Positions 12,379 to 38,814 of a stretch of DNA of 64,000 bases are shown here, one piece after another (position 1 is the first letter of the stretch; each line of letters opens with the position of its first letter). Position numbers and translations under genes: made by a program. The notes below the pieces were generated by a model. That model made no database searches. It saw only the letters and a program-made list of their open reading frames with translations, and was not told where the DNA came from. This stretch comes from Promethearchaeota archaeon (GTDB taxonomy: Archaea > Asgardarchaeota > Lokiarchaeia > Sigyniarchaeales > SOKP01), in NCBI GenBank assembly GCA_016839765.1, contig JAEOTP010000071.1, positions 1 through 64,000 on the forward strand, read 5' to 3'.

Positions 12379-12912
12379 TTAAATTTTCCATTCTTTTACT
12401 AAGATACTCATAAATATGACATCATGGTATTGACCATTCTTAAAAACTGCTTGTCTTTTTCTTCCTTCTTCAACAAATCCTACTTTATTATAGCATTTTA
12501 TAGCTCTAATGTTAAAATCATCAACTTCTAATTCTATTCGATTTAGATTTAGTGTATTAAAACCATATTTAACTAATAATCGTAATACCTCAGTGCCATA
12601 TCCTTTCCCTTGATTTTCTTTATCACCAATAAAAACACCGCAAACCGCAGTTCTATCTTTCCAATTTATATCTTGAAGTCCGCAATTGCCAATTAGTTTT
12701 TCCTTAGTGTTATTTTCAGTTAACAAAATAGAAAAAATAATTGTATTTTCTTCAGTTTTAAGATTATCAAACCATTCTTCTTCCATATCACGTGTAAGTG
12801 GGCGATATCTTATTAAAAATTGTGTGATTTCAGGATCATTTAACCATTCAAGGAATTTTTCAATATATTCCCTTTTAAGGGGTGCTAATTTTATTCTTTC
12901 TCCTTTAAGCAT
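12379..12912 (-). CDS. GNAT N-acetyltransferase, RimJ/RimL type
   Basis: QGKGYGTE, LNLNRIEL.V...N.RAIKCY.KVGF..EG. Confidence 0.88.
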   Translation of the reverse strand: MLKGERIKLAPLKREYIEKFLEWLNDPEITQFLIRYRPLTRDMEEEWFDNLKTEENTIIFSILLTENNTKEKLIGNCGLQDINWKDRTAVCGVFIGDKENQGKGYGTEVLRLLVKYGFNTLNLNRIELEVDDFNIRAIKCYNKVGFVEEGRKRQAVFKNGQYHDVIFMSILVKEWKI

Positions 12913-12974: not shown

Positions 12975-15851
12975 TTAAAAGTAAATACCTTTCTTACGAG
13001 AAAAATATTTCACCAGTTCAAAACCACCAATGCAAATAAGAGAAATTAAGAAACACACTAACCAATCAAACCCAGTCAAATACATAAACATAAAATTTAT
13101 GCCCCATGTCGCTAAAGTAACTTGTACACCAGGAATATACATTAAAGCTATGAAAACTCCGAATAATAACCCAATTAAGAGATACATAAATTTTGTACTA
13201 TCCTCTTTTATACTTTTAATTAAGGATTTGTTAGGTCTCCGAATTTGAAATACTAAGAAAGATTCGCAGAAAAACAAAGTAACCATAAGCATTGTTAGAG
13301 TTTTTGCTTGAATTAGGACTTCTTTTGAAGTCTCTGAGGAATAAAGGTATGCATCATTAAAACTTCCAAAATCTAAATCATCTGGGGTAGGATATAACCC
13401 CGTGTAAACTATAAAATATGTTATAATCATACAAGCAGCTAATAATATACCAAATATAAATAAAAGAATAAAAGTATTCTTTGAAAGTATTTCTTCCTCA
13501 TCTCGTGGTTTTTGCTTCATGACATCTTTAGACGTTTTATCAAAAGTTAAAATTAAACCAGGAAAAAGGTGTAGAGTTATTGTTAGAAAAATCCATTGAT
13601 AGTAGAAAGCTTCGCTCAAAAAATAGGGAAGTCTAAATATTACCGTTAAAAAAAATTGTACAAGTCCCTCGAAAACATTAATACAAATATAGAAAAATAC
13701 CACAGCACGTATACGAGAGAAGATTCCCCTACCTTGTTCAATTCCAGTAACAATTGAATTAAATGAATCATCGCTAATGACCATATCCGAAGCTTCCTTA
13801 GCTACGTCTGTTCCTTGAATTCCCATTGCGATACCAGCATCTGCCATATTGAGTGCAAGAGCATCATTCACACCATCGCCTGTCATTGCAACTACCTTAT
13901 TGGCATCTTGATATTGCTCGATAATATCTTCTTTGTGCTCTGGAGATACTCTAGCAAAAACCTTAATTTTATTGAAATCGTAAAATGAATCAATTTCTTT
14001 CACATCCTTACCCTTAACAACTAACTCATCTTCTTCCTTTATTATAGCTATTTGTGTTGCAATAGCCCTTGCAGTGGTAGGTGAGTCTCCTGTGATCATA
14101 ACAACATCAACACCAGCATCATGACATTCAATTACACTCTCACGAACTCCTTCCCGAGGTGGATCAAGAATAGTAACAAATCCTATATAGATCATTTCTG
14201 ATTCATATAATTCTCTATTTTTATCACTTTCGGAAGGCAATTCATCTAATTTTTTATAACAAATGCTTAATATGCGATACCCTTGTGCTGCGTATACATC
14301 AGCAATTTTTATTACTTTTTCTTTTATTTCATCAATTAAATCCACTTCCGTGTTTTTATACAAAATTTTTTTACATAGTGGCATGAGTATATCACTTGCA
14401 CCTTTAGTGAAGGAGTAATATTTCCCATCTCTCTTATAAATTTTCGTCATTCTTTTAACTTTTGAATCAAATGGATATTCCTTAATATATTCAAAGTCTT
14501 CAAGCATGTATGAGCCCATTCCTTTTTGAAAAAGAACCATTAAAGCGCCTTCAGTGGGAGATCCAATGACATTCCAGTTTGGGATAATTTTGCCTGAAAT
14601 TTCAATTTCATTTTTAACTAACGCAGAATTGTTATTTAGAAATCCTGATGTTAATAATAATTTGAGTTGTGGATGTTCATCAATATGCTTTATATAAACA
14701 GGATTTTTTGGGTCATCAATCAAGATAATATCACCTTCAGGACTATAACCACTTCCAGTTACCTTGTAATTAGACCCATTTGTCCATACATGTTGGATGC
14801 TCATTTGATTTTTAGTTAGCGTACCAGTTTTATCTGAACATATTACGCTTACTCTTCCTAAACTGTCAACGGAGGCAAGGTTTCTTATAATAACACCATG
14901 ACGAGCCATAACTAATACTCCTGTAATCAGAATTATTGTTACTAATAAGGGAATATTTAAAGGAAGTAGATCCATAGCTGAATTTAAACTAATAACCACT
15001 TCTGGGGTGCCTTCAGCAACCCATTTTATTAAGAGAACTAAAAGCCAAAAACCAAAAACAATTAACCCTAACCATTTACCAAAATGATTCATTTTTTGAC
15101 GGATAGGGATTTCACTTGTGCCCGCCTCCTCTAATCCTTGAGAAATTTTTCCAATTTCAGTGTCTTTGCCTATCTTTACGGCTATAGCAGTTGCGTTACC
15201 TGTTGTGATATATGTTCCATAAAAAACCATATTAAAACGTTCTCCAATTGAGATTTCAATATCAGATAATGCATAACCTTCATATAATTTTTTAACTGGT
15301 TCACTTTCACCTGTTAATGACGCTTCATTAACCTCAAGATTAGATGCTCTTATTATTCTTCCATCTGCAGGAATTCTATCACCTTGTGTTAATACTAAAA
15401 GATCTCCTACGACAACATTTTTGGTAGGTATATCCATCTTTTCACCATCTCTAATGACTGTCGTAGTTGGAGCTGTCATTTCTCTTAAAGCTTTTAATTT
15501 CTTAGTTGCTCTATATTGTTGTACGATTGCGACAAAACAATTTAAAAAAACGATCCCTAGAGTTATTCCCACAAACATTAAATTTCCTCCTCCAAAGAAT
15601 GCTGCTAAAAATAAAATTACCGCCCCAATTAGGTAAATTACAATTAACCAGTTAAATAAAGGTGCTAAGTAGATTTTAATAAATCCTTTTGAGGCTTTAG
15701 GTATTTCATTAAAGCCATATAATTCCAATCTTTTCTGTACATCCTCTTTTGATAATCCATTAGTGGGATTTGTCTGAAATTCAGAATAGATTTGGTTTAA
15801 ATCCATTGTATAATAAGGTTCTGGCATAAAAGGATCTCCCGTAACTTTCAA
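12975..15851 (-). CDS. P-type ATPase, P2A (SERCA-like) scaffold with non-canonical transport site; ATG at 15827 is a likely start
   Basis: LTGES, CSDKTGTLT, KGA, DPPR, MITGD, FARVSP, TGDGVND; TM4 reads DLLPLNIP instead of PEGLP. Confidence 0.9.
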   Translation of the reverse strand: MKVTGDPFMPEPYYTMDLNQIYSEFQTNPTNGLSKEDVQKRLELYGFNEIPKASKGFIKIYLAPLFNWLIVIYLIGAVILFLAAFFGGGNLMFVGITLGIVFLNCFVAIVQQYRATKKLKALREMTAPTTTVIRDGEKMDIPTKNVVVGDLLVLTQGDRIPADGRIIRASNLEVNEASLTGESEPVKKLYEGYALSDIEISIGERFNMVFYGTYITTGNATAIAVKIGKDTEIGKISQGLEEAGTSEIPIRQKMNHFGKWLGLIVFGFWLLVLLIKWVAEGTPEVVISLNSAMDLLPLNIPLLVTIILITGVLVMARHGVIIRNLASVDSLGRVSVICSDKTGTLTKNQMSIQHVWTNGSNYKVTGSGYSPEGDIILIDDPKNPVYIKHIDEHPQLKLLLTSGFLNNNSALVKNEIEISGKIIPNWNVIGSPTEGALMVLFQKGMGSYMLEDFEYIKEYPFDSKVKRMTKIYKRDGKYYSFTKGASDILMPLCKKILYKNTEVDLIDEIKEKVIKIADVYAAQGYRILSICYKKLDELPSESDKNRELYESEMIYIGFVTILDPPREGVRESVIECHDAGVDVVMITGDSPTTARAIATQIAIIKEEDELVVKGKDVKEIDSFYDFNKIKVFARVSPEHKEDIIEQYQDANKVVAMTGDGVNDALALNMADAGIAMGIQGTDVAKEASDMVISDDSFNSIVTGIEQGRGIFSRIRAVVFFYICINVFEGLVQFFLTVIFRLPYFLSEAFYYQWIFLTITLHLFPGLILTFDKTSKDVMKQKPRDEEEILSKNTFILLFIFGILLAACMIITYFIVYTGLYPTPDDLDFGSFNDAYLYSSETSKEVLIQAKTLTMLMVTLFFCESFLVFQIRRPNKSLIKSIKEDSTKFMYLLIGLLFGVFIALMYIPGVQVTLATWGINFMFMYLTGFDWLVCFLISLICIGGFELVKYFSRKKGIYF

Positions 15852-15970
15852 AAATTTATTAATATATTGTTATAAAATTAAATCATTTTAATAGATAGAC
15901 TATAACAATAATTCTTTTTATTTTATTTCTTTTTGATAAAAAAATTGGTTTATTATACCATAAAATAAAA

Positions 15971-16786
15971 TTAATTTTTAGAATTAGATTTAATTTTTTC
16001 TCTAAATTTCTTAATTAATTTACTCCAATCAATATAAACTAATAGGAACAGAATTATTATAGATGTTGCCCAAAGTAGAGAACTTAGTAAAATCTCCAAT
16101 AGCGTGCTCTCTGGGATAATTCCCAAACTAGCAGCATCGAGATCAATCCCAAATAAATTAAAGAGAAATTCACCAAAAGCGGTATCTGCTAACCAAATAG
16201 GAAGTGCGCTACATAAAAAGCATAGAACAAATTTTCCCATGAAACAATAAATCAAGGTTTTAAAGATACTATATTGGGCTATGCCGAGAACAATTAGAAA
16301 TGCATCATCTGGAAGAGGTGTTGCAGCAAAAATGAAAATTAATATTGGTGCCCAACCTTTTTCAACATAACGTTTCATACGTTCAACACTTTCTGAGTCT
16401 CTAAGAAGATTTTTAGATCCACGACCAATTAACCATGCAGTAATTTCCCCAATACTTGCTCCAAGACCACCTACAATTCCAAGTAAAATTGGATTTACAC
16501 CAGGAATTACTGCAGATATTACTATAAGCGCAATTGTATAGGGAACAGGAAATATTATTGTAAAGTTTCCAAAAATGCTAATTAAAAAAACTCCAAGATA
16601 AATTCCAAAGTCTCCAAATTCTCCGTAAAACCACATAACAGTGGTAGCAAGCCATTGACCAAAATTTATATTTAATACGGCTAAAAGAATAAATAAGATT
16701 AATATACCACAAATAAAGATGATTCCACCATATTTCTTTATAAAAACCATCCTATAAGAGGATTTTACGGCCTTTTCTTCGTTCAT
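15971..16786 (-). CDS. DedA/VTT-domain (SNARE-associated) membrane protein, VMP1-like
   Basis: Re-entrant-type motifs GNFTIIFPVPY and FAATPLPDD, and GGLGASIGE helix. Confidence 0.8.
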   Translation of the reverse strand: MNEEKAVKSSYRMVFIKKYGGIIFICGILILFILLAVLNINFGQWLATTVMWFYGEFGDFGIYLGVFLISIFGNFTIIFPVPYTIALIVISAVIPGVNPILLGIVGGLGASIGEITAWLIGRGSKNLLRDSESVERMKRYVEKGWAPILIFIFAATPLPDDAFLIVLGIAQYSIFKTLIYCFMGKFVLCFLCSALPIWLADTAFGEFLFNLFGIDLDAASLGIIPESTLLEILLSSLLWATSIIILFLLVYIDWSKLIKKFREKIKSNSKN

Positions 16787-16829
16787 TTAATTTCTTTCTA
16801 TGTTTATTAAATATAAAAAAAACAAAATT

Positions 16830-19673
16830 TTAGAATATTATATTTTTTCGTCTTGCTAAGTATTTAATCACTTCAATTCCGAAAATCCCTGGCAGAGACA
16901 ATAAAATACAAATTAACCAGTCAGTACCGCTAAGGAACATGAAATTAATCTGGAAATTTAATCCTGATGACGCTATGAAGGAATTAATGGGTAATGAAAA
17001 ACAAATATGTAATATATGTAGTAGTAAAGTAAATGAGTTGATAATAAATAACTTCCAGCTAAATTCCTCTTTAATACTTTTAAACAGGGATTTATTTGGT
17101 CTTCTTATACTCCATATAAAAGTTGTTTCCACAATAAAAAGCGTCGTAATAAACATGGTTCTTGCTTTTTGTGCAATTAAATCACTTTCTAAAAGACTTA
17201 AATTAACATTCCAAGAATTTAAGGGAATCATTTCCCCTAAAGTTAGTTGTAAAGCCAAAACTATACCTAAACCCATTAGGAAAGCATGAATAAGTAATAA
17301 TATCCATATGTTTCTATTTAATAATTCCTCTTTATTTCTTGGAGGTTCATTCATGACATCTATAGGTGGTTTATCAATAACTAATGCTAATGAAGGAAGT
17401 GAATGAACTATCCCAAAAATATAAATATGCTGCCATTCTGAACTAAATAACGCAAATGTTGGTATGAATTCATAAGTAAAGAATATCAGCGCCTCCATAA
17501 TATTTAAACATATGAAGAAGTAAACGATAATTCGGATCTTAGCAAATAAGCCTCTACCGATCTTCACACCTTTTACTATAGATGTAAAATTATCATCTGA
17601 TATTACAAGATCTGCAATCTCTTTAGCAACATCGGTACCAGTAATTCCCATAGCTATTCCTGCATTGGCTAACTTTAAAGCTAAAGCATCATTAACTCCG
17701 TCACCTGTCATAGCAGTTATCTTATTCTGTTTTTGATAATTTTTAACAATGACTTCTTTATCTGAAGGAGATACTCTAGCAAAAACCGAGACCCGATTAA
17801 AATCCTGTTCATTGAGTCTTGATATTTCATAACCTTCAATAACCAAATCATTTGGTTTGTATATCCTCATTTGAGATGCTATAGTTTGAGCCGTGCTAGG
17901 ATGATCACCAGTTATCATTACTACTTTTATACGTCCAGATTCACATTCTTCTACTGATTCCCTTACTTGACTACGAGGTGGATCTAATATCGCCAAGAAA
18001 CTTAGAAAAGTCAGATCTTTCTCAATACTCTCTCTAGTTTCTACTAATTTATTTTCTATTTTTTTATATGCAACAGCTAAAGTTCTATAACCTTGTTTTG
18101 CTTTTGATTGAATATTATTCAAAATCTCTTCCTTTTTATCCATTGATAGGGTTTCTATTTGTCTATTGGTTTCTATGTCAGTACATATTTCTAGAATTTT
18201 TTCAGGAGCACCTTTAGAAAAGATATAATTAGTATCACCATCGCTATTTGATCTACAAATGGTAGACATACGTTTGATTTCAGAACTAAATGAAAATTCT
18301 TTTATTTTTTCATAGCTTCTCTTAATATCATATAAGATATAACCTGCTTTTTCAGCTAATACTAGAAGTGCTGCTTCTGTAGGTGATCCTAAAGCTCTTC
18401 TTACTGCCATTTCTTTCCTGCCTTTTCCTCTTACTTTAACATCTTCATAAATAAGATTTGCATTATTATTTAGTACACTTGATTCAATGAACGTTTGAAA
18501 TGTTTTATTATCTTGTAGGTTAATAACTTTACCATTTTCTGAAATAAAGCCTTCAGTTTCATATCCAGAACCTGTAACATTATATTCTATGTTATTAATC
18601 CAAAACTTTTCTACTGTCATTTCGTTTTTGGTTATTGTTCCAGTTTTATCTGAGCAAATTACAGATACCCTCCCTAAGGATTCAATAGCAGAAAGATTTT
18701 TTATAATAACACCATGTTGAGCCATATTAAGAACGCCAGTAATTAAAACTAGTGTTGTCAATATGGGCAAATTAATAGGCATAATATTCATTGATCTAAG
18801 AATTGAGCTAATCAATGCTTCACTGATATAATCTCCATAAAATTTTCCCTGAATGCCTAAAAGAGCAAATTTATATATAATCAGAACTGCAAGAATAATA
18901 ATTACAATGGAACCTAAGATATATCCAAGTTTGTTTAATTTTCTTGTTAATGGAATTTCTTCAATACTTCCCATTTCATTTAATTGAGTTGATATTTTTC
19001 CAATTTCTGTATTAACTCCTGTTCCTGTAACTACTGCCTTTGCCCTCCCAGTATCAACATATGTGCCCATAAATACCATATTAAATTGTTTCTGTATTGG
19101 TAATTCTGCATTTTTTAGTTCACCATTATTTTTTTCAACAGGCTCACTTTCACCTGTCAGAGCTGCTTCATCAATAGTTAGGTTGACGAAATCAATGATT
19201 CTAGCGTCAGCAGGAATTTTATCCCCTTGTTCTAATAAAATTATATCTCCTGGTATTAATTCTCTTGTTGGGATTTCAAATTGTTCACCATCTCTCAAAA
19301 CAGTTGCTTTTAATGCGCCAATTTTTCTTAAAGATTCGAGGGCTTTCTGTGCTCTAAACTGCTGGATTATTACAGTTATAGAGTTTAGGAAAACTACGGT
19401 GAAGGTAATTATTGTTGATGCTGGAGACCCTAGGAGTAATACGATAATTCCAGAAATTAGCAAGATAACTATCAAAAAATTAAAAATGGGAGCTAAATAA
19501 ATTTTCCAAATGGATTTTTTAATTTTAGGTAATTCATTATATCCATATTTAGAATAAAATTGCTCCAAATTTGATAATTTTAACCCTTTTTCTTCATCCG
19601 TATTAAACTCTTTAATTAACTCATTAATAGATTTTGTATAATAGTTATTATTATATAAATGAATTTGAGACAT
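16830..19673 (-). CDS. P-type ATPase, P2A-like scaffold with non-canonical transport site (paralogue of 12975..15851)
   Basis: LTGES, CSDKTGTIT, KGAPE, DPPR, MITGDH, TGDGVND; TM4 reads NIMPINLP. Confidence 0.9.
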   Translation of the reverse strand: MSQIHLYNNNYYTKSINELIKEFNTDEEKGLKLSNLEQFYSKYGYNELPKIKKSIWKIYLAPIFNFLIVILLISGIIVLLLGSPASTIITFTVVFLNSITVIIQQFRAQKALESLRKIGALKATVLRDGEQFEIPTRELIPGDIILLEQGDKIPADARIIDFVNLTIDEAALTGESEPVEKNNGELKNAELPIQKQFNMVFMGTYVDTGRAKAVVTGTGVNTEIGKISTQLNEMGSIEEIPLTRKLNKLGYILGSIVIIILAVLIIYKFALLGIQGKFYGDYISEALISSILRSMNIMPINLPILTTLVLITGVLNMAQHGVIIKNLSAIESLGRVSVICSDKTGTITKNEMTVEKFWINNIEYNVTGSGYETEGFISENGKVINLQDNKTFQTFIESSVLNNNANLIYEDVKVRGKGRKEMAVRRALGSPTEAALLVLAEKAGYILYDIKRSYEKIKEFSFSSEIKRMSTICRSNSDGDTNYIFSKGAPEKILEICTDIETNRQIETLSMDKKEEILNNIQSKAKQGYRTLAVAYKKIENKLVETRESIEKDLTFLSFLAILDPPRSQVRESVEECESGRIKVVMITGDHPSTAQTIASQMRIYKPNDLVIEGYEISRLNEQDFNRVSVFARVSPSDKEVIVKNYQKQNKITAMTGDGVNDALALKLANAGIAMGITGTDVAKEIADLVISDDNFTSIVKGVKIGRGLFAKIRIIVYFFICLNIMEALIFFTYEFIPTFALFSSEWQHIYIFGIVHSLPSLALVIDKPPIDVMNEPPRNKEELLNRNIWILLLIHAFLMGLGIVLALQLTLGEMIPLNSWNVNLSLLESDLIAQKARTMFITTLFIVETTFIWSIRRPNKSLFKSIKEEFSWKLFIINSFTLLLHILHICFSLPINSFIASSGLNFQINFMFLSGTDWLICILLSLPGIFGIEVIKYLARRKNIIF

Positions 19674-19767: not shown

Positions 19768-20742
19768 TTAAACGAATTCTACCTGCTCTGTTTGAGTATC
19801 CCCTAAAATATCTTTTAATACATTAAATTTTTTTCTAATTGTAGTACTTGAAAATTTGCTGGTTTCCTCAATAAGATTTTGGGTAAATATTTTCTTATTA
19901 TCTAAAGTCTGACCGACATAATAAATTAATCCTGCTGTAAATGCTTTATAATTGAGGTTTTGTATTTGAGAATAAGAAATCTTGTTTAGTAATTCAGCTG
20001 CTAATAGTTGCATTTCGATTTTTAATTTTTCATATTCAGATTTATTTGAAAAATGGGTTTTTATCTTATCATAACTAATACTATTGAGATCTTTTTGGAA
20101 TAATATTTTTATTTTTCCCTTAATTTCACGCTCTAATGTACCTTCATCTTTAACGCTCTTATCAAATAATTGTTCGGTTCTTTTTACTTTAAGCATTGCA
20201 TTATTAAGCATTTTTTTATTAATTTTATGACCTAATTCTCTGGCAACCTTAATGTATTCTTCTATCCTAACATTCGTCGTGTCTTTTATCTCCATCCAAA
20301 CAATTGCTAAAAAAATAATTACCATATTTTGATATGTATGCCTATGGTATTTGTTATATCTGAGATATCGATTTTTGATCCTTTGATTTTTTACTTTATT
20401 AATATTCAATCCTATTCCATAAGTCTTAAGCAATTCAATTGTTTTTTTTTGTTCAGAAAAACTAGTTTTATAATCTCTAAACCATTTATTTAATGTTTTA
20501 ATTTGGTCATACTTTTGTTTAATTTTTGGATCTTGCGTTGCTTTTGAATCTCCAAACCTTATTTTGCGTTCGTAATCCAATTGTGATTCTGAATAAATTC
20601 TATTAGAAGAAGGTGTTTCAAAATCTATTCGTTCGTCTAATATTAGTCCACAATCTTTACAAACAAGATATCCTCCAGCTTGTTCTAGGTTCCGGTGTTC
20701 ACATTTAGAGTTTTCAGAGGATTGTTCTCTTTTTTTTTTCAA
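19768..20742 (-). CDS. Divergent TFIIB/TFB-like protein (Zn ribbon plus cyclin-like repeats)
   Basis: CEH...GGYLVCKDCGLIL Zn ribbon; KAFTAGLIYY...TQNLIEETSKFSSTTIRKKF C-terminal HTH. Confidence 0.7.
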   Translation of the reverse strand: MKKKREQSSENSKCEHRNLEQAGGYLVCKDCGLILDERIDFETPSSNRIYSESQLDYERKIRFGDSKATQDPKIKQKYDQIKTLNKWFRDYKTSFSEQKKTIELLKTYGIGLNINKVKNQRIKNRYLRYNKYHRHTYQNMVIIFLAIVWMEIKDTTNVRIEEYIKVARELGHKINKKMLNNAMLKVKRTEQLFDKSVKDEGTLEREIKGKIKILFQKDLNSISYDKIKTHFSNKSEYEKLKIEMQLLAAELLNKISYSQIQNLNYKAFTAGLIYYVGQTLDNKKIFTQNLIEETSKFSSTTIRKKFNVLKDILGDTQTEQVEFV

Positions 20743-21500: not shown

Positions 21501-22424
21501 TCAGGATAATTTACTTTTAATTTGTTTTGCTCTACTTCTTAAAGTAACTTCTGTTATTTTTGCTATTTCTGCTACTAAACTCTGTGTTTTTTTCGCATTT
21601 CCATCTTTAGCAGCAATGTAGATACATGCTGCTGCTAATCCTTTTGGATCTTTACCTGTACGTTTCAATCCATTACTAGATGCTGTTCTTAGCATTTCTA
21701 TTGCGTTTTTTTGAATATTCATAGGTAACTCTAATTCATTTCCAAATCGATAAACTAAACTTTCTGCGGTAATAGGTTGATATCGTAATCCTAATTCAGG
21801 TAATACTTCACGAATTATCATAGCTAAACTTCTATGAACTGTTCTTCTAGGAGTTAATGAGGCTTCGCATAATTCATCTAATAAACGAGGAAAATCATGC
21901 ACTCTTATTGCAGCATATAAAGATCCTGCTATAAATCCATTAATTGAACGCCCCATAGTTAGTTTTTTCTTCGCAACAATACTATATACTTTCCAAGCTG
22001 TTTCACTGATGTATTCTGGAATGTTTAATTTAGATGTAAGCATTTTTAATTTAGGTTTAGCTTCCCAAAAATTCCTTTCAATGCTTGAAATTAATGAATT
22101 TTGAATTTTTGATAATCTCGAAAAAAGAGCTTGCTCTTTAGGACCAATTGATTTTCCTTTAGAATCCGTCTTTGTAGTGGGTAACATAGTTCTAGGACCA
22201 AAATCTCTCCACCTGGGTTCAGTCCTACGTCTAGTTTGAACTTCTTCAGCTGTATAAGCCCTTCTTTCATTTCCAACATAAGTTCTTTCTAAAATCATTC
22301 CACAATTTAAACAAACTTTATTTCCATCCCTCTCTTCGATACTTGGATTTTCACAGCATTCACAAACTTGTAAATTATCATCTAATTTATTGTTCTTCAG
22401 AAGATCTCGATAGCTATTATGCAT
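21501..22424 (-). CDS. tfb: Transcription initiation factor IIB
   Basis: CECC...CLNCG Zn ribbon, ERRAY, GRSI...AGSLYAA.R, GKDPKGLAAACIY, TQ..VA.IAKITEVTLRSR. Confidence 0.92.
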   Translation of the reverse strand: MHNSYRDLLKNNKLDDNLQVCECCENPSIEERDGNKVCLNCGMILERTYVGNERRAYTAEEVQTRRRTEPRWRDFGPRTMLPTTKTDSKGKSIGPKEQALFSRLSKIQNSLISSIERNFWEAKPKLKMLTSKLNIPEYISETAWKVYSIVAKKKLTMGRSINGFIAGSLYAAIRVHDFPRLLDELCEASLTPRRTVHRSLAMIIREVLPELGLRYQPITAESLVYRFGNELELPMNIQKNAIEMLRTASSNGLKRTGKDPKGLAAACIYIAAKDGNAKKTQSLVAEIAKITEVTLRSRAKQIKSKLS

Positions 22425-36048: not shown

Positions 36049-36738
36049 TTGGTTTCAAAAGAACAAAAAAAGCTGGAACGCGTTATTAATTTTATGAAAA
36101 AGGGCTTGACTTCTTTATCAGATGATCTTGGGGAAACTGTTAAAGGGATTAATGATTTTATAAAATCTTTAAATAAAGCTATGAAAGATTTAAAAGAAGT
36201 AAAAGTTGAAGCTGAAGTTCAAACAGTTAGTACTTCCTCTAAAATAGTTGCAACGCCGGCTACTGGTAATGTTAAAACGGCTGCTGCGAGTACATTATTT
36301 AATTTATTAAGTGGAGGGAAAACACCAGTTCAAGCACCAACTACTGCTAGTGCTAGTCCTGGACTTCCTAAACCTCCTATAGCTGGAGCTCCAAAGGCTC
36401 CTCCTAGCGGTGGTGGTCCTCCAAAAGCACCACCAGGTGGCAGTCCTCCAACGCGTACTAATTTACCTCCAGCTCCAAAACTACCACCAGTATCAGGAAG
36501 TGGTGCTCCTCCTGTCGCTCCAAGTGGCGGGGTAGTAAAAGCACCAACATTTGCAAAACGAACCGGCCCCCCTGCAGCTCCTACCAGTGGCGGTCCACCA
36601 AGAGCTCCTGGAGCAGTGCCTCCCGTAGCACCAGCAGGATCAAGTGTCGCACCAAGAGCAGGAGGAGGTTTAAGTTCCTTAAGAGATGAGATGCTTGAAG
36701 AATTAAATCGTTTAAAGAAAATAATGAGAGGAGAATAA
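36049..36738 (+). CDS. Helical N-terminus / Pro-Gly-Ala-rich linker / WH2-like C-terminal helix protein
   Basis: Many PP and PxxP motifs; ends GGGLSSLRDEMLEELNRLKKIMRGE; GAGG upstream of the TTG start. Confidence 0.75.
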   Translation: MVSKEQKKLERVINFMKKGLTSLSDDLGETVKGINDFIKSLNKAMKDLKEVKVEAEVQTVSTSSKIVATPATGNVKTAAASTLFNLLSGGKTPVQAPTTASASPGLPKPPIAGAPKAPPSGGGPPKAPPGGSPPTRTNLPPAPKLPPVSGSGAPPVAPSGGVVKAPTFAKRTGPPAAPTSGGPPRAPGAVPPVAPAGSSVAPRAGGGLSSLRDEMLEELNRLKKIMRGE

Positions 36739-36836
36739 GCAAAATATAATTTTTCTTTTATGTAATAACTCCTATTTTTTATTGCTCTAATTATTTTCAG
36801 AAAGTTTTTTATTTCTATAAGAAGTGATTATAATAG

Positions 36837-37583
36837 ATGGAGAAAAAACATTATATCCTATGTGAAAATAAAATCCCTATTGTTGTTCCTAAAAGGTTAA
36901 TGGTTTTTGCGGGACATCCTGATGATGAAATCATATCATGTGGCGGGACGATACTTAAATATCAAGAATTAGGGTCTGAAATTATAATAGTAATTGCTAC
37001 CAGTGGTTTAGGAGGATATACTAAGAAATTAGACAAACCCAAGATTTTAGAACATCGTAAAAATGAGCTAAAATTAGTTGAAGATATAATAAAAGCTAAA
37101 ATAATTGATTTAAATTATTCAGATATTGAAATTAATAGGAAAAAGATATCCAAAATTACAAATTTAATACGAGATTGGCAACCACAAGTTATATTAATTC
37201 CTCATTTTTCGGATTTTCACCGTGTGCATCGTAATTTATCATTAATTACCCGTGAATCGATATATCATTGTTCAAGTGGAAAAGCGTATGGAGGTCATGA
37301 AAGAAGTTGGACTCCTTATGGAGTGTATTACTATGAATCTCCATCTTGTAAGTTTCAATATATTGATGCTTCAGTTTTTGTAATTGTCGATATAGAATAT
37401 TATTGGAATAGGAAGAAACAGATATTTAATCAAGTCTATGAATCGCAAAAAGAAGTACTCGAGCGGGTAATAGAATGGGCAGAAGACACAGCAATCTTAA
37501 GAGGGAATGAAATCAATTCGAAATATGGTGAAGCATATATTCCAATGACTGAATACACACCACTTAAAATCCTTTTGGTTTAG
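36837..37583 (+). CDS. PIG-L/LmbE family N-deacetylase
   Basis: AGHPDDE..SCGGT, R..E, H..DFH..H, YGEAY. Confidence 0.88.
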   Translation: MEKKHYILCENKIPIVVPKRLMVFAGHPDDEIISCGGTILKYQELGSEIIIVIATSGLGGYTKKLDKPKILEHRKNELKLVEDIIKAKIIDLNYSDIEINRKKISKITNLIRDWQPQVILIPHFSDFHRVHRNLSLITRESIYHCSSGKAYGGHERSWTPYGVYYYESPSCKFQYIDASVFVIVDIEYYWNRKKQIFNQVYESQKEVLERVIEWAEDTAILRGNEINSKYGEAYIPMTEYTPLKILLV

Positions 37584-37698
37584 ATTGCTAAAACTGAGGT
37601 ATATTTCACTGAAAATTTTATTAGTATAAAAATAAATAAATTAATTGATTATTAAATCAAAAGAATATGTAAACGAATTCCGATTCTAATTTGAAATT

Positions 37699-38814
37699 AT
37701 GGGAAATTTAACTGTTGTTCTCGATCTAGGATCCTTCGCCACAAAATGTGGTTTTGCTGGAGAAGATATGCCATCTCAGGTTTTTTTTACTATTGTTGGA
37801 ACTCCTAAATACCAACAAATCGATTTTGATTATGGAGGCGCAAAAACCGAGGAATTTTATGTAGGAGATGAAATCCAATCGTTAGGCCTCTTTAAAGTTC
37901 TTTATCCTATTGAAAAGGGAAGAATACAGGATTGGATATCGTTTGAAAAGATTATTGATTACATTTTTTACAACCTTCGAGTAGATCCAAGTTTAGTTAA
38001 TATTCTTTTCGCTGTCCATCCTTTATTTCCCCAGCAAGATTTAGCTCGATTATTTGAATTATTTTTAGAACACTATCAATGTATGGCATTTTATCCAGTA
38101 TTAGATTCAATGCTACCACTATACTCAGGAGGATTTCAGACAGGTTTGGTTGTAGAAATCGGTGATAGTCTTACTAGAATTGTACCAATTTATGAAGGGT
38201 ATAAGCTAGATCATGCAATTCGGATTTTAGAATTGGGTGGTAGAACCTTGACCAGATATATGGAAAAAATCCTAGGGGAGATTGGATTCTCTGCTGACTC
38301 ATCGATAAGACGAGAATTAGTTAGGGCACTGAAAGAAAAAGCATGCTTTGTATCCTTAGACTACAAGGAAGATCTTAAGCGTGTTGAGCAATATGAGAAG
38401 CCTTATTCATTACCTGATGGCTCTACTATTAAATTAAGTGGAGAACGATTTAAGGTTCCAGAACTTTTTTTTAATCCTTCTTTAGAACTTGAAGAAGACT
38501 CATTACCTAAAGCGATAATGGATGTAATAGAAGAATGTGATGTTGATATCCGTCCAGAATTATTAAATAATATATTTTTATCTGGAGGATCTTCAATGTT
38601 CCCTAATTTAAAGTCGCGAATTCATCAAGAGTTAGAATTAGAATTAGCAAAAAGAAAGAAAAAAGGTCAAATTATCAAAATCATTGCACCTAGAGAACGG
38701 GTTTTTTCTGTATGGGTTGGAGGGTCGATTTTATCTATGTTACCAGAGTTTCAAGATTTATGGGTTACAAGAACTAAATATTTTAATGAAGGTATCCCAG
38801 AAGACCTGTTATAA
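37699..38814 (+). CDS. Actin-family protein (Asgard actin-related)
   Basis: DLGS..TKCGFAGED.P, YPIEKG, TGLVVEIGD..T..VPIYEGY, GGR.LT.Y, KEK.C.V..D, LPDG, ERF..PE.FF.P, LSGGSSMFP, SVWVGGSIL. Confidence 0.95.
   Translation: MGNLTVVLDLGSFATKCGFAGEDMPSQVFFTIVGTPKYQQIDFDYGGAKTEEFYVGDEIQSLGLFKVLYPIEKGRIQDWISFEKIIDYIFYNLRVDPSLVNILFAVHPLFPQQDLARLFELFLEHYQCMAFYPVLDSMLPLYSGGFQTGLVVEIGDSLTRIVPIYEGYKLDHAIRILELGGRTLTRYMEKILGEIGFSADSSIRRELVRALKEKACFVSLDYKEDLKRVEQYEKPYSLPDGSTIKLSGERFKVPELFFNPSLELEEDSLPKAIMDVIEECDVDIRPELLNNIFLSGGSSMFPNLKSRIHQELELELAKRKKKGQIIKIIAPRERVFSVWVGGSILSMLPEFQDLWVTRTKYFNEGIPEDLL

What the first reader, a model, noticed from the sequence alone, without database searches (positions are those of the whole stretch)
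12975..19673. Candidate lipid-translocation module: two atypical P-type ATPases flanking a VMP1-like DedA/VTT protein
Seen: three co-oriented genes (ATPase 16830..19673, VTT protein 15971..16786 only 43 bp away, ATPase 12975..15851). Both ATPases lack the canonical ion-binding residues (next finding). The middle protein has GGLGASIGE and FAATPLPDD motifs resembling VMP1 (GTAIGE / ASIPNPLFD). Established: DedA-superfamily members VMP1 and TMEM41B are lipid scramblases, VMP1 has been linked functionally to SERCA in animal cells, and P4-ATPases are ATP-driven lipid flippases largely restricted to eukaryotes. Inference: an Asgard flippase-plus-scramblase (membrane asymmetry/remodelling) system, or an ancestral VMP1/P2A-ATPase partnership.
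Basis: partly seen in the sequence, partly recalled or inferred. Interest (0 to 1): 0.9.

Follow-up and report, generated by a model that had tools for sequence, protein, structure and literature searches.

The report
Asgard pumps with rebuilt cargo site
The two ATP-driven membrane pumps belong to an uncharacterised branch of the calcium-pump family, found across most Asgard archaea, whose cargo site is rebuilt around a glutamate–histidine pair so that it is unlikely to carry calcium, while the small DedA gene between them is an optional neighbour rather than part of a conserved lipid-moving machine.

Summary
The three genes and the DedA motifs are where stated. The claim that both ATPases lack ion ligands is half right: SERCA site II is gone (E309 hydrophobic, N796 mostly lost, D800 to His), but N768, E771 and E908 remain. 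Both pumps belong to a monophyletic P2A-derived subfamily present in about 300 of 400 Asgard genomes. They are not P4: TGES, no K873, and P4-profile scores no higher than those of ordinary Ca pumps. The pump pair is conserved across the host family; the VTT gene sits between the pumps in only 15 of 63 loci. Its ortholog lies elsewhere in four genera, is nearly mutually exclusive with an unlinked paralog, and is not found near 40 family members from other orders. The flippase-plus-scramblase module is not supported. Best guess: a stand-alone ion pump run by an M5 Glu/M6 His pair, the polarity-reversed counterpart of the Arg/Asp pair of P3A proton pumps (0.35). A convergent lipid flippase stays open (0.25). 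The scan found this family before on other DNA, and one follow-up reached the same verdict. I found no paper describing it.

The parts
16830..19673 (-). Pump A: P2A-derived P-type ATPase, 947 aa, with rebuilt membrane site
   Evidence: model pLDDT 81, best structural matches P2 pumps
19146..19157 (-). Pump A actuator motif TGES (P2/P3 type, not the P4 DGET)
   Evidence: DGET as P4 motif in PMC4937031
18765..18779 (-). Pump A M4 motif PINLP; Ile300 at the SERCA E309 position, Asn301 conserved in 84/92
18648..18650 (-). Pump A phosphorylated Asp342 of DKTGT
17493..17504 (-). Pump A M5 Asn724 and Glu727 (SERCA N768, E771), kept
17403..17405 (-). Pump A M6 His757 at the SERCA D800 / AHA2 D684 position
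17127..17129 (-). Pump A M8 Glu849 (SERCA E908), kept in 86/92
15971..16786 (-). DedA/VTT membrane protein, 271 aa; optional member of the locus
12975..15851 (-). Pump B: ancient paralog of pump A (43% identical), same rebuilt site; probable start 15827
14949..14963 (-). Pump B M4 motif PLNIP (preceded by Asp, not Asn, at the -3 position)
13668..13679 (-). Pump B M5 Asn725 and Glu728
13569..13571 (-). Pump B M6 His761
13263..13265 (-). Pump B M8 Glu863
19768..20742 (-). Divergent TFB-like gene directly upstream of pump A; a steadier neighbour than VTT (58 of 59 loci)
12379..12912 (-). GNAT acetyltransferase downstream of pump B; frequent but not universal neighbour within the host family

Best explanation
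Both ATPases are members of one uncharacterised subfamily that split from the P2A Ca2+ pumps early in Asgard history and works without a dedicated neighbour. Shown: catalytic motifs intact; Ca2+ site II and the acidic M1/M2 entry residues replaced; a Glu (M5), His (M6), usually a second Glu (M8) and an Asn (M5) conserved at old site I. Inferred: they run the normal phosphorylation cycle and move protons or another small monovalent cation, using the M5 Glu / M6 His pair as the titratable site, at the two positions where P3A proton pumps carry Arg and Asp, with the charges reversed. The VTT gene is one of two interchangeable housekeeping DedA paralogs; it came to lie in this locus in an ancestor of part of the host family and was lost or moved several times. 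Confidence by step: distinct non-Ca2+ P2A-derived family 0.9; VTT not an obligate partner 0.85; cargo H+ or small monovalent cation 0.35.
For: Conservation in 92 family members: E771-site Glu 92, D800-site His 91, E309-site hydrophobic 92. E908 is replaced in one Heimdallarchaeota lineage while Glu and His stay, so the pair, not a full carboxylate cage, is the core. Asgard P3A pumps aligned here have PVALP in M4 (hydrophobic at E309, second Pro kept, as in PINLP), Arg at the Glu727 column and Asp at the His757 column; PMC5387105 equates AHA2 D684 with SERCA D800 and R655 with E771. P4 pumps collapse these sites with hydrophobic residues (bioRxiv 666321), whereas they are retained here. One clade with SH-aLRT 100 inside P2A; membrane-domain profiles hit SERCA, LMCA1 and SPCA first. 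Synteny.
Against: No activity data. P3A pumps keep acidic residues at the end of M2 and a negative pocket near the proton site; this family has neutral QQ there. True P3A pumps coexist with the family in at least five Asgard genomes. Two paralogs kept side by side with fixed differences in M4 (Asn vs Asp at -3), and four copies in one closed genome, fit different organic cargoes better than protons. The VTT-pump linkage persists in three genera, once with changed order.
Confidence: 0.35

Rival explanations
1. Stand-alone lipid (or other amphiphile) flippase that converged on the P4 solution: Ile300 acts as a hydrophobic gate, backbone amides and Asn301 hold a phosphate headgroup at unwound M4, and the Glu-His pair is a built-in counter-ion allowing cargo-independent phosphorylation.
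For: Hydrophobic residue at E309 followed by a small polar residue resembles PISL. Four negative charges on the M1-M2-M4-M6 side are removed. Paralogs differ at the M4 position that selects headgroups in ATP8A1. P4B flippases need no beta subunit (PMC10654040).
Against: The ATP8A1 N353-equivalent is Asn in only 14/92, the N882-equivalent is mostly hydrophobic, there is no M5 lysine, and the buried Glu residues are kept. P4 profile scores (108-126 bits) do not exceed those of canonical Ca pumps (up to 122). The hydrophobic M4 residue is shared with P3A pumps, so it is not diagnostic of lipid cargo.
Confidence: 0.25
2. Transition-metal pump (Mn, Fe, Co, Ni or Zn) using old site I, with Asn724, Glu727, His757 and Glu849 as ligands.
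For: Asn, Glu, His and Glu are conserved at site I in 81-92 of 92 members; such a ligand set suits borderline metals (general knowledge).
Against: Glu849 is replaced in a whole lineage; the acidic entry residues are neutralised; no conserved metal-related neighbours were seen across the phylum.
Confidence: 0.15
3. First reader's module: the pumps and the VTT protein form a conserved flippase-plus-scramblase system, or an ancestral VMP1/P2A partnership.
For: Co-oriented, 24-99 bp gaps where present. The VTT tree mirrors the pump tree, so the link is old within the host family, and it persists in three genera. Most genomes keep one of two paralogs, which could serve in trans. VMP1 is a scramblase reported to interact with SERCA (PMC8077175).
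Against: 48 of 63 loci have the pump pair without VTT and the VTT-bearing ones are not one clade (AU p 1.6e-5). The ortholog sits beside prolyl-tRNA synthetase-like or other genes in four genera and beside a phosphosugar-mutase-like gene in another family. None near 40 members from other orders. The pumps are not P4 by the tests run.
Confidence: 0.07
4. Pump for another small organic or inorganic solute (amine, ammonium, amino acid, anion), or paralogs with partly regulatory roles.
For: The signature matches no curated subfamily at its cut-off; paralog expansion in Promethearchaeia.
Against: No direct evidence for any such cargo; no conserved neighbourhood points to one.
Confidence: 0.18

Closest known systems
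P2A Ca2+-ATPases (SERCA, SPCA1, Listeria LMCA1)
   Same: Domain set, length, TGES/DKTGT/GDGxND, fold (TM-score about 0.75 to SERCA), M5 Asn and Glu, M8 Glu; nested among P2A in trees
   Different: E309, N796, T799, D800, D59 and E109 replaced; only 420-490 bits on P2A profiles where canonical Asgard pumps reach 670-820. Single-site pumps such as LMCA1 and SPCA keep site II and drop site I (own knowledge); this family does the reverse.
P3A plasma-membrane H+-ATPases (AHA2, Pma1, archaeal P3A)
   Same: Hydrophobic residue at E309 with both M4 prolines; an ionisable pair at the same M5 and M6 positions
   Different: Pair reversed (Glu/His vs Arg/Asp); about 950 vs 810 aa; 300-355 bits vs cut-off 615; M5-M10 profile lists no P3A among its 60 best; neutral M2 end
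P4 lipid flippases (ATP8A1/ATP8A2, Drs2, Neo1)
   Same: Ile at the E309 position followed by a small polar residue; shared P-type fold (Z 24-27.5)
   Different: TGES not DGET; no M5 lysine; N353 and N882 equivalents not conserved; buried Glu residues kept; 17-19% identity; P4 profile no better than for Ca pumps
DedA superfamily / VMP1 family (incl. the Promethearchaeum VMP1-family protein WP_147662241 of bioRxiv 2020.12.18.423352)
   Same: VTT domain, G-x3-GE..Y/W-x2-GR and PxPDD motifs; an Asgard VMP1-family member is already reported
   Different: 271 aa; nearest look-alikes are archaeal and bacterial VTT clusters; one of three VTT paralogs in this genome; not compared here with eukaryotic VMP1

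Membership tests
P-type ATPase superfamily | DKTGT phosphorylation site, TGES-type actuator, GDGxND | tested here: met
P2A lineage (descent) | Best profile, structure and tree placement with SERCA/SPCA/LMCA1 | tested here: met
   quick trees without eukaryotic P4 or P5 rows
P2A Ca2+-ATPase (function) | M4 PEGL glutamate and M6 N796/T799/D800 | tested here: not met
   0/92 have Glu at E309; D800 is His in 91/92
P2A Ca2+-ATPase (function) | Site I M5 N768/E771 and M8 E908 | tested here: met
   81, 92 and 86 of 92
P2A Ca2+-ATPase (function) | Curated profile cut-off (TIGR01522 798, TIGR01116 703) | tested here: not met
   460/457 and 469/422 bits
P4 flippase | Actuator motif DGET | tested here: not met
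   TGES in both pumps and nearly all members (PMC4937031)
P4 flippase | M4 PISL with hydrophobic gate residue | tested here: inconclusive
   Hydrophobic residue present, but motif is PIN[LI]P and P3A shares the trait
P4 flippase | M5 lysine (K873) and headgroup Asn residues (ATP8A1 N353, N882) | tested here: not met
   No Lys; Asn in 14/92 at the N353 site; N882 site mostly hydrophobic; mapping to P4 numbering is by SERCA equivalence
P4 flippase | Profile TIGR01652 (cut-off 431) and PF16212 | tested here: not met
   108-126 bits, same range as canonical pumps; PF16212 over cut-off in 0 of 201 Asgard genomes searched
P4 flippase | CDC50 beta subunit (P4A, P4C) | tested here: inconclusive
   None found in 5 genomes, but no positive control rang; P4B needs none
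P4 flippase | Phylogenetic grouping with eukaryotic P4 | not testable with these tools
   No P4 sequence could be fetched into the tree
P4 flippase | Lipid-stimulated ATPase and flipping | not testable with these tools
   needs biochemistry
P3A H+-ATPase | M6 Asp (D684) with M5 Arg (R655) | tested here: not met
   His and Glu at those columns
P3A H+-ATPase | Profile TIGR01647 cut-off 615.5 | tested here: not met
   340 and 332 bits; true Asgard P3A score 700-1090
P3A H+-ATPase | Tree grouping with P3A | tested here: inconclusive
   Best tree places the family in P2A; forcing it with P3A costs 15 lnL but is not rejected, p-AU 0.35
DedA/VTT superfamily | PF09335 above cut-off with the conserved motifs | tested here: met
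VMP1 family within DedA | Grouping with eukaryotic VMP1 | not tested
   No eukaryotic VMP1 sequence obtained; could not map WP_147662241 onto my loci
Conserved ATPase-VTT-ATPase module | Linkage kept across related genomes | tested here: not met
   15/63 loci; 0/40 outside the order

The most novel reading that the evidence does not exclude
This near pan-Asgard family is an ATP-driven lipid flippase of prokaryotes, derived from P2A Ca2+ pumps independently of (or as a precursor state to) eukaryotic P4 pumps, giving Asgard archaea active control of membrane asymmetry; DedA paralogs may cooperate in trans.
Probability: 0.25. Interest if true: 0.9.

Novelty: new variant of a known kind. Interest (0 to 1): 0.58.

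Why it matters
P4 and P5 pumps are described as eukaryote-only and their origin is open (PMC10654040). Here is a pump subfamily of the archaea closest to eukaryotes, present in about three quarters of sampled genomes and in four copies in one closed genome of the order, with a cargo site unlike any curated subfamily and annotated in databases only as a cation or Ca2+ pump. Whatever it carries, it shows a further way of repurposing the Ca2+-pump scaffold. If the cargo is lipid, it bears directly on when active membrane asymmetry arose; if it is H+, it is a charge-reversed reinvention of the proton pump. It is testable by ordinary expression and reconstitution.

Tried and rejected
Complex prediction of pump A (without N domain) with VTT: no answer, score 0.00, no evidence either way. 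RNA runs: no RNA holder listed, so co-transcription was not examined. Sigma-70 promoter and terminator scan: at chance level and the wrong model for archaea. PDB search with the VTT alignment: no hit. Atlas searches gave only generic VTT and Cation_ATPase_C clusters. CDC50 search had no positive control. Viral contigs gave only canonical P2/P3B pumps, used as outgroups. I could not obtain P4, P5 or eukaryotic VMP1 sequences for trees. The taxonomy of the member labelled Nitrososphaeria could not be resolved. Literature searches found no description of the family; subscription papers, including several P-type evolution papers, are not covered. Rejected: the N-x-x-P-I likeness to P4 as a family trait (Asn at -3 is only 14/92); the family as a mere stand-in for P3A (they co-occur); absence being tied to hot habitats (a Njordarchaeum member exists and a Heimdall lineage lacks it); chance decay of the pumps (catalytic and new site residues are invariant).

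Full report
Observation. The three ORFs are at the stated coordinates on the minus strand, with a 43-bp gap between pump A and VTT and 119 bp between VTT and the TTG start of pump B; close orthologs suggest pump B starts at the ATG at 15827. Both pumps have the P2-type Pfam set, and the middle protein is VTT. The closest relatives are labelled Promethearchaeota. The genome also holds a canonical P2A pump on another contig, one P1B-type pump and two more VTT genes.

What the pumps are. They score best on P2A profiles (422-469 bits) but below every subfamily cut-off; P3A gives 332-340, P5 234-245, P4 108-118. The best solved relatives are LMCA1, SPCA1 and SERCA by sequence, by profiles of the membrane parts alone and by fold. 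In the wide structure search P2 and P3A chains score Z 28-34 and P4 chains 24-27.5; conformational state affects these values. Catalytic motifs are intact. The membrane site is rebuilt the same way in both paralogs, which are only 43% identical. In 92 family members against 45 canonical pumps: E309 is hydrophobic in 92, the next residue Asn in 84, N768 kept in 81, E771 in 92, N796 replaced in all (mostly Phe, Tyr, Val), D800 His in 91, E908 kept in 86, E109 Gln in 87, D59 Asn in 75.

Distribution. A profile of M5-M10 matches 308 of 400 Asgard genomes at E 1e-25 or better; six of these are weak matches, leaving about 300. Scores are bimodal, 134-235 bits against at most 95 for canonical pumps, and all 40 high-scoring loci fetched carry the signature. 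Named carriers include Thorarchaeota, Heimdallarchaeota, Borrarchaeum, Kariarchaeaceae, Njordarchaeum and Helarchaeota. It was not found above the gap in the closed Odinarchaeum genome, in the Freyarchaeum family (0/6), a Baldrarchaeia genome or one Heimdall family (0/12). Among 1.84 billion cluster representatives only 73 match at E 1e-30 or better; the full-length ones down to about 1e-25 carry the signature and lower ones are canonical. One member is labelled Nitrososphaeria, so strict Asgard exclusivity is not shown. The family is one clade (SH-aLRT 100) inside the P2A radiation; pumps A and B fall in separate old branches. A forced grouping with P3A is worse but not rejected (p-AU 0.35). 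P4 descent could not be tested by tree, but the P4 profile scores family members (up to 126 bits) no higher than canonical pumps (up to 122), and no P4 C-terminal domain passed its cut-off in 201 genomes.

The linkage. In 63 informative loci of the host family, pump B or VTT follows pump A; VTT is between the pumps in 15 and absent in 48. A TFB-like gene upstream is steadier (58 of 59). VTT-bearing loci need at least three changes on the pump A tree and are rejected as one clade (p-AU 1.6e-5), while the VTT tree mirrors the pump tree: the gene was inherited with the locus and lost repeatedly. Across 135 genomes of the family the ortholog is found in 31, and an unlinked paralog of about 240 aa in 78; only 3 have both where independence predicts about 18 (kin are not independent, so I give no p value weight). 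In four genera the ortholog lies away from the pumps, in several beside a prolyl-tRNA-synthetase-like gene; in one genus it precedes the pumps instead. In another family it sits by a phosphosugar-mutase-like gene. No VTT lies within about 5 kb of 40 members from other orders, and no neighbour is shared across families. This fits a housekeeping DedA function kept through either of two paralogs. It does not exclude cooperation in trans. An Asgard member of the VMP1 family has been reported already (bioRxiv 2020.12.18.423352), and look-alikes occur in other archaea and bacteria.

Mechanism. Shown: an intact catalytic headpiece on a membrane domain that has lost Ca2+ site II. Inferred: the cargo. 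The Ile at E309 recalls the P4 gate, but P3A pumps also have a hydrophobic residue there and keep the second proline, as this family does. The P4 residues that bind the headgroup are not conserved: Asn at the N353 position is a trait of the pump A branch only (14/92), and there is no M5 lysine. P4 pumps collapse the ion sites; here Glu727 and His757 are the most conserved membrane residues and lie at the positions of Arg655 and Asp684 of AHA2. Glu849 is dispensable in one lineage, which favours a titratable pair over a metal cage. I therefore put H+ or a small monovalent cation first (0.35), then lipid with the pair as built-in counter-ion (0.25), other solutes (0.18), a transition metal (0.15), and the obligate module last (0.07). 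Neutral M1/M2 entry residues, coexisting P3A pumps and stable paralog differences in M4 argue against protons and keep the lipid reading alive.

Novelty. I found no paper on this subfamily in the searchable library; a survey of Asgard transporters lists only putative Ca2+, Mg2+ and copper P-type pumps (PMC7997004), a 2023 review names no such group in the passages read, and databases call members cation or Ca2+ pumps. Earlier readers of this scan flagged the same pump pair in many genomes, and one follow-up reached the same verdict on the DedA gene; these notes are not independent evidence, and I tested the claims myself. Verdict: real, a new variant of the P-type pumps with open cargo; the proposed three-gene lipid module is not supported.

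Noticed in passing
window 19768-20742 (-): Divergent TFB-like protein (zinc ribbon, 22% identical to the TFB at 21501-22424) directly upstream of pump A in 58 of 59 loci; no Pfam hit at default threshold.
   Followed up: partly
L036:1501-2208 and family-wide: A second DedA paralog of about 240 aa, beside methylamine-methyltransferase-like genes, is nearly mutually exclusive with the window's VTT gene (31 vs 78 genomes, 3 with both).
   Followed up: yes
L108, L121, L122: In one genus a third, longer VTT paralog lies 0-4 kb from a different member of the pump family, in convergent orientation, next to a nucleotidyltransferase; in a sister genus the same VTT/transferase pair has no pump in the 1.5 kb flanks read.
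   Followed up: partly
L146, L147, L150, L153: One Heimdallarchaeota family has lost the M8 glutamate in this pump family while keeping the Glu/His pair.
   Followed up: partly
L271-L277: P3A-type H+-ATPases pass the cut-off in 7 of 38 Asgard genomes; two (L275, L276) have Gln instead of the M5 arginine.
   Followed up: partly
L046, L050, L052, L102 (between the pumps): A 179-aa C_GCAxxG_C_C putative redox protein occupies the slot between pump A and pump B in four loci, showing that the slot accepts unrelated genes.
   Followed up: partly
L042:9850-10943, L090: An unknown gene of up to 574 aa with no Pfam hit is inserted after VTT in two loci.
   Followed up: no
L186:2839-4684: One divergent family member lies next to BacA and PAP2 lipid-phosphatase genes; a single case.
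   Followed up: no
L289:5001-7976: A family member labelled Nitrososphaeria archaeon by NCBI, 57% identical to the nearest Asgard sequence fetched; either a non-Asgard occurrence or a labelling error.
   Followed up: partly
L145, L156: Tandem pairs of this pump family also occur in two families outside the host's class.
   Followed up: no
window 36049-38814 (+): Actin-family gene with a proline-rich neighbour, already noted by first-stage readers.
   Followed up: no
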